From: the human T2T-CHM13v2.0 reference genome, Homo sapiens
Reading direction: 5' to 3' (one strand)
DNA: 64,000 nt
NCBI RefSeq assembly: GCF_009914755.1
Contig: NC_060934.1
Part shown: positions 46,365 to 55,690 of the stretch, piece after piece
How positions within the stretch are numbered: position 1 is the first letter of the stretch
How the letters are laid out: each line of letters starts with the position of its first letter
The notes under the pieces: model-generated
Told to the model about the DNA's origin: nothing
What the model saw: only the letters and a program-made list of their open reading frames with translations
The model's database searches: none
Position numbers and translations under genes: made by a program

Positions 46365-47468
46365 AGGACATAGGCATGGGCAAGGACTTCATGTCTAAAA
46401 CACCAAAAGCAATGGCAACAAAAGCCAAAATTGACAAATGGGATCTAATTAAACTAAAGAGCTTCTGCACAGCAAAAGAAACTACCATCAGAGTGAACAG
46501 GCAACCTACAAAATGGGAGAAAATTTTCGCAACCTACTCATCTGACACAGGGCTAATATCCAGAATCTACAATGAACTCAAACAAATTTACAAGAAAAAA
46601 ACAAACAACCCCATCAAAAAGTGGGCAAAGGATATGAACAGACACTTCTCAAAAGAAGACATTTATGCAGCCAAAAAACACATGAAAAAATGCTCATCAT
46701 CACTGGTCATCAGAGAAATGCAAATCAAAACCACAATGAGATACCATCTCACACCAGTTAGAATGGCGATCATTAAAAAGTCAGGAAACAACAGGTGCTG
46801 GAGAGGATGTGGAGAAATAGGAACACTTTTCCACTGTTGGTGGGACTGTAAACTAGTTCAACCATTGTGGAAGTCAGTGTGGTGATTCCTCAGGGATCTA
46901 GAACTAGAAATACCATTTGACCCAGCCATCCCATTACTGGGTATATACCCAAAGGACTATAAATCATGCTGCTATAAAGACACATGCACACGTATGTTTA
47001 TTGTGGCACTATTCACAATAGCAAAGACTTGGAACCAACCCAAATGTCCAACAATGATAGACTGGATTAAGAAAATGTGGCACATATACACCATGGAATA
47101 CTATGCAGCCATAAAAAATGATGAGTTCATGTCCTTTGTAGGGACATGGATGAAATTGGAAATCATCATTCTCAGTAAACTATCACAAGAACAAAAAACC
47201 AAACACCGCATCTTCTCACTCATAGGTGGGAATTGAACAAGGAGAACACGTGGACACAGGAAGGGGAACATCACACTCTGGGGACTGTTGTGGGGTGGGG
47301 GGAGGGGGGAGGGATAGCATTAGGAGATATACCTAATGCTAAATGACAAGTTAATGGGTGCAGCACACCAGCATGGCGCACGTATACATATGTAACTAAC
47401 CTGCACATTGTGCACATGTACCCTAAAACTTAAAGTATAATAATAATAAAATAAAAAATAAAAAAAAA
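46365..47468 (+). mobile_element. 5'-truncated L1PA3-like element (copy A)
   Basis: ORF2 C-terminus (ORFs 46376-46885, 46994-47236; premature TGA), G-rich 3' UTR, poly(A); TSD AGAAAATAGGA at 46355-46365 and 47469-47479. Confidence 0.97.
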
Positions 47469-48081
47469 AGAAAATAGGAAAAGAGGTAGCAATGTAGTTT
47501 CTTTCTATACCATTGAGAAAATAAAGCCATTGTTAATAAAATCACATACTGAACGGACATTTATTCCTTACCTACTTGATGTCAGATATTGTGCAAGAAT
47601 CTCTGGAACCACACATAAATATCAGACATAAATCCTGCCCTAAGAAGCATATGGGCTAGTGAAGAAGTGGACACAAACAAGGGAGAGTAATAAATATTGT
47701 AGCAAAACCACACACTCACTGCTACTGGAATGTAGAGATGAAAATTTTAATTTTGCGTAAAATTGATATGAAGTGGTATTATATTAGGTGAGGAAAGCTT
47801 ATGACTAGAATATTCAGGAAAACATAAGGTACCTACGTTTTACTCCTTAGCTGGCTATATCACGTTCTAAGACATGTTATTACCACATTTTACAATGAGT
47901 CTCAGCCATTCAAAAACTACATACATATATGGACTTCAAAGATGAAGAACAAAGTTAGCATTAATTTTGGTAAAAATTTTAATTCAGTGGTTTATGCATT
48001 AGGGGTACTTTTTCCTACCAGCAAGGCAATATCTTATTCTTATTAAACACACAATAAATGTTTTAAAAGAAATTAATGTGT

Positions 48082-48388
48082 GGCTGGGTGCGGTGGCTCA
48101 AGCCTGTAATCCTGGCACTTTGGGAAGCCAAGGCAGGAGGATCACTTGAGGTCAGGAGTTCGAGACCAGTCTGGCCAACATGGCAAAACCTCATCACTAC
48201 TGAAAATACAAAAATTAGCCAGGTGTGGTCGTACACGCCTGTGGTCCCAGCTACTTGGGAGGCTGAGGCAAGAGAATAGCTTGAACCTGGGAGGCAGAGG
48301 TTGCAGTGAGCTGAGATGGTGCCATTGCACTCCAGTCTGGACGACAGAGCAAGTACTCCATCTCAAAAACAAAAAAAAAAAAAAAAAA
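48082..48388 (+). mobile_element. AluS (Sz-like) or AluJb
   Basis: Full dimer with poly(A); TSD-like AAATTAATGT. Confidence 0.95.
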
Positions 48389-48477
48389 GAGAGATAAATT
48401 AATGTAGAAAGATAGGCATTTAAATACCTATACAATTTGGCAAACTAAAAAAATCTGTAACTATGGCAATACCTATG

Positions 48478-53551: not shown

Positions 53552-54398
53552 ATACAAATGGCCAACAAACATATGAAAAAATGCTCAACATCACTAATGA
53601 TCAGGGAAATGCAAATCAAAACCACAATGCAATACCACCTTACTCCTGCAAAAATGGCCACAATAAAAAAAAATAGATGTTGACATGGGTGTGGCAAAAA
53701 GGGAACACTTTTACACTGCTGGTGGGAATGTAAACTAGTACAACCACTATGGAAAACAGTGTGCAGATTCCTTAAAGAACTAAAAGTAGAACTATCATTT
53801 GATCCAGCAATCCCACTACTGGGTATCTACCCAGAGGAAAAGAAGTCATTATGTGAAAAAGACACTTATATAAAAAGATATAAAGTTGTTTACAGCAGCG
53901 CAATTCGCAATTGCAAAAATATGGAACCAGCCCAAGTGCCCATCAGTCAATGAGGGGATAAAGAAATTGTGATAAGGAAATTGTGATACATATACACACA
54001 TACATACATGTATACATACACAGGCACCATGGAATACTACTTGGCCATGAAAAGGAATGAAATAATGGCATTCGCAGCAACCTAGATGGAATTGGAGACC
54101 ATCATACTAAGTGAAGTAACTCAAGAATGGGAAACCAAACATCCTATGTTCTCACTCATGAGTGGGAGCTAAGCTATGAGGACACAAAGGCATAAGAATG
54201 ATACAATGGACTTTGGAGACTCAGGGGAAAGGGCAAGAGTGGGGTGAGGGATCAAAGACTACACATTGGGTACAGTGTATACTTCTTGGGTGATGGGTGT
54301 GCCAAAATCACAGAAATCACCAATAAATAACTTATTCATGTAACCAAACACCATCTGTTCCCCCAAAACCTATTGAAGTTTAAAAAAAAAAGAAGAAG
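53552..54398 (+). mobile_element. 5'-truncated L1PB-like element inside Tigger1
   Basis: [29 protein letters not shown]1PB-type 3' UTR ending CCCCAAAACCTATTGAA plus A tail; TSD-like AAAATAT(C/A)AA(C/A)AT. Confidence 0.9.
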
Positions 54399-54600
54399 AA
54401 AATATAAAAATAAATAGATTTTTAACAATTTTTAAAAAGGAGTATAAAAGAAGTGGGTTCCAACCCTCATGAATACTTTGAGGGGTACAAGATTTCTGTG
54501 GAGGAAGCAACTATAGATATAATAGAAAGGGCAAGAGAACTAGAATTAGAAAAGGAGCCTGAAGAGGACACTGAATGGCTGCAATCTTAAGATCAAACTT

Positions 54601-55690
54601 GTGATGTTCACCTTCCTGTGTCCATGTGATCTCATTGTTCAATTCCCACCTATGAGTGAGAAGATGCTGTGTTTGGTTTTTTGTCCTTGCGATAGTTTGC
54701 TGAGAATGATGGTTTCCAGTTTCATCCACATCCCTACAAAGGACATGAACTCATCATTTTTTATGGCTGCATAGTATTCCATGGTGTATATGTGTCACAT
54801 TTTCTTAATCCAGTCTATCATTGTTGGACATTTAGGTTGGTTCCAAGTCTTTGTTATTATGAATAGTGCCGCTATAAACATATGTGTGCATGTGTCTTTA
54901 TAGCAGCATGATTTATAATCCTTTGGGTATATACCCAGTAATGGGATGGCTGGGTCAAATGGTATTTCTAGTTCTAAATCCCTGAGGAATCGCCACACTG
55001 ACTTCCACAATGGTTGAACTAGTTGACAGTCCCACCAACAGTGGAAAAGTGTTCCTATTTCTCCACATCCTCTCCAGCACCTGTTGTTTCCTGACTTTTT
55101 AATGATCGCCATTCTAACTGGTGTGAGATGGTATCTCATTGTGGTTTTGATTTGCATTTCTCTGATGACCAGTGATGATGAGCATTTTTTCATGTGTTTT
55201 TTGGCTGCATAAATGTCTTCTTTTGAGAAGTGTCTGTTCATATCCTTTGCCCACTTTTTGATGGGGTTGTTTGTTTTTTTTCTTGTAAATTTGTTTGAGT
55301 TCATTGTAGATTCTGGATATTAGCCCTGTGTCAGATGAGTAGGTTGCGAAAATTTTCTCCCATTCTGTAGGTTGCCTGTTCACTCTGATGGTAGTTTCTT
55401 TTGCTGTGCAGAAGCTCTTTAGTTTAATTAGATCCCATTTGTCAATTTTGGCTTTTGTTGCCATTGCTTTTGGTGTTTTAGACATGAAGTCCTTGCCCAT
55501 GCCTATGTCCTGAATGGGACTGTTGTGGGTTGGGGGGAGGGAGGGATAGCATTAGGAGATATACCTAATGCTAAATGACGAGTTAATGGGTGCAGCACAC
55601 CAACATGGCACATGTATACATATGTAACAAACCTGCACGTTGTGCACATGTACCCTAAAACTTAAAGTATGATAATAATAAAATGTAAAA
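54601..55690. mobile_element. Twin-primed L1PA4-like element (copy B): 54601-55517 inverted, 55516-55690 sense 3' UTR
   Basis: Minus-strand ORF2 pieces (54795-55304, 55114-55500); inverted part stops at ...GAACATCAC and sense part resumes at GGGACTGTTG, a few nt further in the consensus. Confidence 0.95.

What the first reader, a model, noticed from the sequence alone, without database searches (positions are those of the whole stretch)
46365..55517. Inverted L1 pair with a homogenised 5' half: gene conversion and a candidate invertible 7.3-kb segment
Seen: copy A (46365-47274, +) and the inverted part of copy B (54601-55511, -) face each other across 47275-54600. By hand alignment the 5' ~490 bp differ at about 3 sites, while the 3' ~420 bp differ at about 22 and carry different subfamily-type residues. 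Both share changes absent from the L1HS ORF2 I recall: DKG>DTG (46548/55328), LAI>LVI (46707/55168), LLH>LFH (46831/55044), plus a 3' patch GCATCTTCTC (47212/54663). Known: close inverted repeats undergo non-allelic conversion and NAHR inversion. Inference: these are separate insertions that exchanged sequence recently, so the segment may be a polymorphic or recurrent inversion. Intact TSDs and a collinear Tigger1 show this allele has the ancestral orientation.
Basis: partly seen in the sequence, partly recalled or inferred. Interest (0 to 1): 0.8.

Follow-up and report, generated by a model that had tools for sequence, protein, structure and literature searches.

The report
Gene conversion between two inverted L1 fragments
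Two old LINE-1 fragments lying head to head 7.3 kb apart in a human intron have had about 490 bases of one copy overwritten by the other, an ordinary kind of repeat-to-repeat gene conversion, and there is no evidence here that the DNA between them flips.

Summary
Machine alignment gives 1 substitution plus a 1-base indel in the 5' 485 bp (46365-46849 vs 55026-55511). The 3' 426 bp has 23 substitutions (Fisher P 1.9e-6).

A and B are separate insertions, each with its own intact target-site duplication. By 3'-UTR markers they belong to different L1PA groups. B is a twin-priming insertion with a 3' extension 96% identical to a chr7 locus, which dates B as old.

In the 5' half A and B are each other's closest relatives genome-wide. 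Over 239 nt they match at 0 mismatches and the next best copies have 2. In the 3' part each sits in its own group.

B carries 9 rare private variants in its 3' half and none in its 5' half, while A is uniform. The best reading (0.85) is recent non-allelic gene conversion from A to B.

Only their combination is unique.

The duplications and a collinear DNA transposon confirm that this haplotype has the ancestral orientation.

A polymorphic inversion remains untested. No population data or ape genomes were available.

The phenomenon is known, so interest is low to moderate.

The parts
46355..46365 (+). Left target-site duplication of copy A (AGAAAATAGGA); its last base overlaps the first L1 base
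   Evidence: Exact string found at 46355 and 47469 only, within 45001-57500; sequence read
46365..46849 (+). Copy A, 5' block of the arm (ORF2 codons about 987-1147): the inferred donor of the conversion
   Evidence: 1 substitution plus 1 indel against 55026-55511. Matches ORF2p residues 987-1158, E 1e-111. A's private load is uniform along its length
46850..47275 (+). Copy A, 3' block of the arm (end of ORF2), not homogenised; in-frame stop at 46883
   Evidence: 23 substitutions against 54601-55025. Best other genomic copy 98.4%. Stop codon seen
47276..47468 (+). Copy A 3' UTR and poly(A); UTR markers of the intermediate group 'M' (my label)
47469..47479 (+). Right target-site duplication of copy A
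47480..54588 (.). It holds Alu, L1 and DNA-transposon pieces and lies in an intron of LINC02663 according to the hub's gene table
   Evidence: Its orientation relative to the outside is ancestral
54589..54602 (+). Left target-site duplication of composite insertion B (AAGATCAAACTTGT); its last 3 bases overlap the L1 end
54601..55025 (-). Copy B, 3' block of the inverted ORF2 segment: original B sequence, older group 'O', with many private variants
   Evidence: 9 B-only rare variants (present in 3 or fewer of 77 others) in 426 nt. Best other genomic copy 97%. Groups with O copies
55026..55511 (-). Copy B, 5' block of the inverted ORF2 segment: the inferred converted tract (recipient). It has a 1-base insertion in the A run at 55281 and a G at 55365
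   Evidence: 0 B-only rare variants in 485 nt. Sister to A in the 5' tree. 0 mismatches to A over 239 nt genome-wide
55512..55517 (-). Six further L1 bases (CCATTC) at B's inverted 5' end that A lacks, at the twin-priming junction. They show that B's 5' end is its own
   Evidence: CCATTC precedes this point in 64 of 77 other copies; sequence read
55517..55694 (+). Copy B 3' UTR in direct orientation plus A8. It continues the inverted segment in L1 coordinates with about 5 bases missing, as in twin priming
   Evidence: UTR markers of group O
55695..55712 (+). 18-nt scrap identical to L1 ORF2 sequence (as at 46655-46672), lying between two A runs
   Evidence: Read directly
55713..56136 (+). 3' extension of B: an A run plus the 3' end of an older L1, derived from a chr7 locus, ending in its own poly(A) inside B's target-site duplication
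   Evidence: 95.9% identity over 416 nt (16 mismatches, 1 gap) to G000:C7:122127007-122127421, against 86-89% for the other 38 scored copies. 72% to B's own L1 (I3)
56137..56150 (+). Right target-site duplication of composite insertion B
56139..56485 (+). Outer piece of the old DNA transposon into which B inserted. It continues 54435-54601 and 53268-53551 in the same order and strand
   Evidence: Three other genomic copies (L087-L089) align across all three pieces, with an overlap of about 11 nt at B's target-site duplication

Best explanation
Two independent 5'-truncated L1PA insertions lie in inverted orientation 7.3 kb apart. The older one (B, group O) entered an old DNA transposon by twin priming, so its ORF2 piece points towards A. 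B also carries a 3' extension copied from a chr7 locus. The younger one (A, group M) inserted later. Much later, the arms paired within the chromosome and a non-reciprocal repair event (non-allelic gene conversion, for example synthesis-dependent strand annealing after a break in B) copied A's 5' block into B. This erased B's own mutations over 55026-55511. The tract is at least 284 bp (between shared markers 46548 and 46831) and at most about 485 bp. Its 3' limit lies between 46832 and 46849, and its 5' limit is the end of homology or lies near 46511. Shown here: the mosaic identity, the incongruent trees, the unique pairing genome-wide, B's missing private load, and the ancestral orientation. 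Inferred: the repair pathway, the direction (A to B, about 85-90% given conversion) and the date. The date comes from one substitution in 485 nt against 16 in 416 nt for B's chr7-derived clock, which puts the event in roughly the last 5% of B's residence, with a wide interval.
For: (1) Differences are 1 substitution plus 1 indel in 485 bp against 23 in 426 bp, Fisher P 1.9e-6; the run of 338 identical bases has permutation P 2.8e-4. (2) Empirical null: in 288 pairs of other group-O and group-M copies the 5' half differs at a mean of 19.1 sites (minimum 10) and the 3' half at a mean of 22.3 (minimum 13). A-B has 1 and 24, so the 3' half is typical and the 5' half is far outside the range. (3) An exhaustive genome search of 46600-46838 at up to 3 mismatches gave 49 hits: A and B at 0, none at 1, six at 2 and 41 at 3. 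The five-site combination CTTGC is in 0 of 77 other copies. (4) Trees: in the 5' half A and B are sisters (support 0.84, distance 0.0025, next neighbour 0.020 or more). In the 3' half plus UTR, A sits among M copies and B among O copies, at distance 0.072. (5) Direction: B-only rare variants number 0 in the 5' half, 9 in the 3' half and 4 in the UTR; A-only rare variants number 0, 1 and 2. By hand, 9/426 predicts about 10 in 485, and Poisson P(0) is about 4e-5. Cross-validated loads are about 1.2% and 1.4% for A, and about 1% against at least 2.6% for B. (6) B is old: its extension differs from the chr7 source at 16 of 416 sites, so a B-aged 5' half should carry about 2% private changes. (7) Elevated repeat-to-repeat conversion within 10 kb is documented for Alu (passages read in PMC6598467, and PMC8230782).
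Against: The comparison copies were chosen by similarity to A or B, and only 40 candidates were scored per genome search, so nearest-relative statements outside one search are lower bounds. At 46511 each copy has the state commoner in its own group (A in M/Y, G in O). That fits either a tract stopping before it or a patchy tract; yet 0 differences in the first 146 nt is seen in only 1 of 288 O x M pairs. The 5' ends of A and B lie only 5-7 nt apart in L1 coordinates, which conversion does not explain. No outgroup or second human haplotype was available to show the pre-conversion state. Raw reads could not be inspected.
Confidence: 0.85

Rival explanations
1. Conversion happened in the opposite direction: B's 5' block overwrote A's.
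For: Several shared 5' markers (T at 46633, G at 46768) are common in group O copies. The marker pattern alone does not decide the direction.
Against: The shared block carries about 2-3 uncommon variants in 485 nt. That matches A's private density (3 in 590 nt) and not B's (13 in 590 nt); by hand the likelihood ratio is about 30 in favour of A as donor. Cross-validated loads show A uniform and B heterogeneous.
Confidence: 0.08
2. There was no post-insertion exchange. B was built as a chimera at insertion, by reverse-transcriptase template switching between an O-type and an A-like L1 RNA, or A and B simply share a sub-lineage.
For: B is demonstrably a multi-template product: a twin-priming inversion, an 18-nt ORF2 scrap and a chr7-derived extension. 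Each shared variant exists elsewhere.
Against: B's insertion is old (3.8% divergence from the chr7 source), so any original 5' block should carry about 10 private changes; it carries none. No other genomic copy is within 1 mismatch of the shared 239 nt. None of 288 O x M pairs comes near 1 difference in the 5' half.
Confidence: 0.04
3. Assembly or polishing artefact: reads from one arm were used to correct the other.
For: The two arms are 97% alike overall and this is a single assembly.
Against: The arms are about 8 kb apart and anchored by unique flanks. The identical block ends sharply, while 23 differences are kept next to it. One substitution and one indel are kept inside it. This could not be tested with reads here.
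Confidence: 0.02
4. Reciprocal exchange: an inversion followed by re-inversion, with crossovers at two different points in the arms.
For: Inverted L1 pairs of this size and identity do flank human inversions: 22 L1-flanked cases, median identity 97.2%, median size 5.6 kb (passages read in bioRxiv 10.1101/2021.12.20.472354).
Against: Two crossovers swap segments between the arms and do not make them identical. A carries no O-type segment and B carries no M-type segment in the 3' half. The target-site duplications are intact.
Confidence: 0.01

Closest known systems
Non-allelic gene conversion between neighbouring transposable-element copies. It is best documented for Alu: Kass et al. 1995 and Aleshin & Zhi 2010, as cited in PMC6598467, and the genome-wide screen in PMC8230782 (passages read).
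   Same: An older copy is partly overwritten by a younger neighbour less than 10 kb away. The result is a hybrid element whose parts belong to different subfamilies, with reduced divergence in the tract.
   Different: Here the partners are L1 3' fragments in inverted orientation, and the tract (about 300-490 bp) is longer than a whole Alu. The ancestral state could not be checked in other primates, which is how the Alu cases were established.
Human inversions flanked by inverted L1 pairs: the Porubsky et al. preprint (passages read) and HsInv0341, which has L1PA3 arms, in PMC3961182 (table passage read).
   Same: Inverted L1 arms at about 97% identity with a spacer of a few kb. The architecture matches the reported class (median identity 97.2%, median size 5.6 kb).
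   Different: No inverted allele is known or shown here. The arms are short (0.9 kb), and this haplotype is in the ancestral orientation with unswapped target-site duplications.
L1 twin-priming 5' inversion (Ostertag & Kazazian 2001, as cited in the Porubsky preprint).
   Same: B has an inverted 5' L1 segment next to a direct 3' segment, a deletion of a few bases and microhomology at the junctions, and one target-site duplication around the whole insertion.
   Different: B also carries an 18-nt ORF2 scrap and a roughly 420-nt extension copied from a chr7 locus, between the L1 poly(A) and the final poly(A).
Arm-to-arm gene conversion in palindromes and inverted segmental duplications (recalled; no paper read here).
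   Same: Intrachromosomal pairing of inverted arms, with non-reciprocal transfer.
   Different: This looks like a single patch in diverged arms, not sustained concerted evolution. The rest of the arms stay about 5% apart.

Membership tests
Non-allelic (interlocus) gene conversion between repeats | Sharp switch of divergence along two paralogous copies (mosaic identity) | tested here: met
   2/485 against 23/426, P 1.9e-6; identical run of 338 nt, P 2.8e-4
Non-allelic (interlocus) gene conversion between repeats | Phylogenetic incongruence between the tract and the rest of the copies | tested here: met
   A and B are sisters in the 5' tree (support 0.84) and sit in different groups in the 3' tree, 73 taxa
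Non-allelic (interlocus) gene conversion between repeats | Non-reciprocal: the recipient's own sequence is lost and the donor is unchanged | tested here: met
   B-only rare variants number 0, 9 and 4 across the three segments, while A is uniform. There are no swapped segments
Non-allelic (interlocus) gene conversion between repeats | Pre-conversion state seen at the orthologous locus of an outgroup or in another haplotype | not testable with these tools
   Only this one human assembly is held; no ape genomes or pangenome
NAHR inversion polymorphism flanked by inverted repeats | Inverted homologous arms of several hundred bp at more than 90% identity | tested here: met
   911-bp arms at about 97%, including a 338-bp identical block
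NAHR inversion polymorphism flanked by inverted repeats | Both orientations exist in the population or between species | not testable with these tools
   No population data. Nothing was found in the main texts searched. The one readable inversion table lists only chr10:91.4 Mb for chr10 (PMC9675761 supplement 4). The Cell 2022 paper and its tables are not held
NAHR inversion polymorphism flanked by inverted repeats | Hybrid arms with target-site duplications separated by the inversion, in the inverted allele | tested here: not met
   In this haplotype both target-site-duplication pairs are intact and the DNA transposon is collinear across B, so this is the ancestral orientation
L1 twin-priming insertion (copy B) | Inverted 5' segment and direct 3' segment adjoining in L1 coordinates, enclosed by one target-site duplication | tested here: met
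   54603-55517 (-) and 55517-55694 (+) with about 5 L1 bases missing; 14-bp duplication at 54589 and 56137
L1 3' transduction (copy B extension) | Foreign sequence between the L1 poly(A) and a second poly(A), inside the target-site duplication | tested here: met
   55695-56136
L1 3' transduction (copy B extension) | The source locus has the progenitor L1 immediately upstream of the transduced sequence | tested here: not met
   At G000:C7:122127007 the upstream sequence is an Alu tail inside an old L1, with no L1PA. Reverse-transcriptase template switching or a lost progenitor remain open

The most novel reading that the evidence does not exclude
The conversion shows that the two arms pair in the germ line. 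The 338-bp identical block it created would then make 47480-54588 a polymorphic or recurrently flipping 7.3-kb inversion inside LINC02663, with CHM13 carrying the ancestral orientation.
Probability: 0.08. Interest if true: 0.35.

Novelty: new member of a known kind. Interest (0 to 1): 0.25.

Why it matters
This is a clean, datable example of one L1 fragment overwriting part of a neighbouring, older one. Such events make an old insertion look young, or of mixed subfamily. That distorts divergence-based dating and subfamily calls and can confuse presence/absence markers. The locus has the architecture reported for L1-flanked inversions, so it is a reasonable entry for a list of sites to genotype in pangenome assemblies. 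It lies in an intron of a long non-coding RNA with no annotated functional element, so no functional consequence is expected.

Tried and rejected
- Pfam scan of A's two open stretches: no family. The L1 label rests on the PDB ORF2p match instead.
Uniqueness of the pairing is therefore shown exhaustively only for 46600-46838.
- Using the chr7 source of B's extension to recover B's ancestral L1 sequence failed: that locus has no L1PA upstream.
- Hunt for a known inversion. Aguado 2014 has no chr10 entry in the main text. Giner-Delgado 2019 has no chr10 in the main text. Balachandran 2022 supplement 4 lists chr10:91.4 Mb as its only chr10 inversion. Supplement file 2, the spreadsheet, of the 1,019-genome paper contains no occurrence of "inversion" or "INV"; its other supplement files were not searched. 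Supplements of PMC12485790 are not readable. The Cell 2022 paper is not held. A full-text search for IDs of the form chr10-97... or chr10-98... and for LINC02663 gave nothing relevant. None of this shows that an inversion is absent.
- Rejected: CpG decay as the cause of the contrast (7 of 24 differences are CpG-type).
- Rejected: a hot spot of 5' truncation as the explanation for the similar 5' ends; my sample cannot test it.
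Full report
**What is there**

The region holds two LINE-1 3' fragments whose ORF2 parts face each other.

Copy A (46365 to about 47468, + strand) is a plain 5'-truncated insertion.
- It carries the last ~289 codons of ORF2. Its translation matches human ORF2p residues 987-1158, E 1e-111.
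- It has the 3' UTR and a poly(A) tail.
- It is flanked by an 11-bp target-site duplication at 46355 and 47469.

A 14-bp target-site duplication at 54589 and 56137 encloses the following parts:
- an inverted ORF2 segment (54603-55517, - strand);
- the L1 3' UTR in direct orientation (55517-55694) with about five L1 bases missing at the join, which is the classic twin-priming structure;
- an 18-nt ORF2 scrap between two A runs (55695-55712);
- a ~420-nt extension ending in its own poly(A) (55713-56136).

The extension is 95.9% identical (16 mismatches and 1 gap in 416 nt) to one locus, G000:C7:122127007-122127421. The other 38 scored copies of that old L1 family are 86-89% identical. At the chr7 locus the homology starts in the poly(A) tail of an Alu that sits inside an old L1, and no L1PA lies upstream. 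The extension is therefore either a 3' transduction from a progenitor no longer present there or a product of reverse-transcriptase template switching.

The repeat finder reports the arms at 97-98% complementarity with 7324 nt between them. In a global alignment:
- 46365-46849 differs from 55026-55511 at one substitution (46511) and one single-base indel in an A run;
- 46850-47275 differs from 54601-55025 at 23 substitutions;
- Fisher's test gives P = 1.9e-6;
- a run of 338 identical bases among 24 differences has permutation P = 2.8e-4.

Only 7 of the 24 differences are CpG-type transitions. The directly oriented 3' UTR pieces are also about 7% apart.

**Comparison with the rest of the genome**

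The window's own assembly could be searched. I collected 83 other L1PA copies in four sets:
- 28 chosen by similarity to A's 5' half;
- 29 chosen by similarity to A's 3' half;
- 20 chosen by similarity to B's 3' half;
- the six nearest hits from the exhaustive search.

These sets are biased by how they were chosen, and each genome search scored only 40 candidates.

By 3'-UTR markers the copies fall into three groups, which I call O (older), M (intermediate) and Y (younger). B's 3' half and UTR are group O. A's are group M. No Dfam library was available, so subfamily names were not tested.

Among 288 O x M pairs:
- the 5' half differs at a mean of 19.1 sites (minimum 10);
- the 3' half differs at a mean of 22.3 sites (minimum 13).

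A and B show 1 and 24. Their 3' half is an ordinary O x M pair and their 5' half is far outside the range.

In maximum-likelihood trees of 73 sequences (12 gappy copies left out), A and B are sisters in the 5' half: support 0.84, distance 0.0025, next neighbour at least 0.020. In the 3' part A sits among M copies and B among O copies, 0.072 apart.

**Are the shared variants special?**

Singly, they are not.
- The 38-mer with the LVI change occurs 850 times in the genome.
- DTG is present in 9 of 57 other copies and LFH in 19 of 57.

The combination is unique.
- The five-site haplotype is in 0 of 77 other copies.
- An exhaustive search of 46600-46838 allowing 3 mismatches finds 49 places in the genome: A and B at 0 mismatches, none at 1, six at 2 and 41 at 3.
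- All six 2-mismatch copies lack 46831C; five also lack 46707T and one (L082) lacks 46633T instead. The four that cover the 3' half differ from A there at 16-24 sites.

For that part I have only the sampled comparison: 1 of 288 O x M pairs has no difference in the first 146 nt.

**Direction and date**

Variants present in at most 3 of 77 other copies:

| Copy | 5' half | 3' half | UTR |
|---|---|---|---|
| B only | 0 | 9 | 4 |
| A only | 0 | 1 | 2 |
| Shared | 1 | 0 | 0 |

By hand, B's 3' density predicts about 10 in the 5' half, and P(0) is about 4e-5.

I also estimated loads using only comparison sets that were not selected on the segment being measured:
- A is uniform, at about 1.2% and 1.4%.
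- B has about 1% in the 5' half against at least 2.6% in the 3' half.

The chr7 comparison gives an independent clock. B's extension has diverged 3.8% from its source, so B is old, and an original 5' block should carry about 2% private change. A is therefore the donor and B the recipient.

One substitution in 485 nt against 16 in 416 nt places the event in roughly the last 5% of B's residence, with a Poisson interval from about 0.1% to 30% (hand calculation).

The site 46511, where each copy has the state commoner in its own group, is either a gap in a patchy tract or a later mutation.

**Orientation and the inversion idea**

Both pairs of target-site duplications are intact. Three other copies of the DNA transposon that B interrupted align 53268-53551, then 54435-54601, then 56139-56485, in one order and strand.

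Two crossovers would swap segments between the arms and would not make them identical, and no swapped segments are seen.

The architecture matches the class of L1-flanked inversions reported in 41 genomes: 22 cases, median arm identity 97.2%, median size 5.6 kb (passages of bioRxiv 10.1101/2021.12.20.472354). No call at this locus was found in what I could read. The key tables of Porubsky et al. 2022 (Cell) are not held. The inversion remains a candidate only.

**Verdict**

This is a well-supported single case of a known process. Conversion between neighbouring repeat copies within 10 kb is documented for Alu (passages of PMC6598467 and PMC8230782).

One thing remains unexplained: the 5' ends of A and B lie only 5-7 nt apart in L1 coordinates. 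B has CCATTC, which A lacks and which 64 of 77 other copies have at that place. Conversion does not account for this, so I treat it as coincidence.

Noticed in passing
55695-56136; L090 (G000:C7:122125600-122127500): B's 3' extension is 95.9% identical to a single chr7 locus, against 86-89% for the rest of that old L1 family. The homology starts in the poly(A) tail of an Alu at the chr7 locus. An 18-nt ORF2 scrap lies between two A runs just upstream. This looks like either 3' transduction from a lost progenitor or serial template switching at A runs.
   Followed up: partly
46365 and 55512-55517: The 5' truncation point of A and the 5' end of B's inverted segment are only 5-7 nt apart in L1 coordinates. 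B keeps six L1 bases (CCATTC) that A lacks. No mechanism was found, so this is treated as coincidence.
   Followed up: partly
47212 / 54663: A and B share a minority variant (C; present in 6 of 57 other copies) inside the otherwise diverged 3' half, bounded by differences at 47207 and 47241. It could be a second very short conversion patch or a recurrent change.
   Followed up: no
53552-54439: A second block of inserted repeats splits the same old DNA transposon. It includes an L1 fragment at 53561-53670 that is 82% complementary to 55096-55205, and a repeat ending near 54420 whose sampled portion (54250 to about 54420) has 82-91% hits genome-wide (the hub's mask lists 53980-54446).
   Followed up: no
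45368-45507 and 48206-48346: An inverted pair of Alu-like repeats (81-87% complementary) brackets copy A at a distance of about 2.7 kb.
   Followed up: no
46883; 55281: Both ORF2 remnants are broken. A has an in-frame TGA at a CpG site. B has a one-base insertion in an A run.
   Followed up: yes
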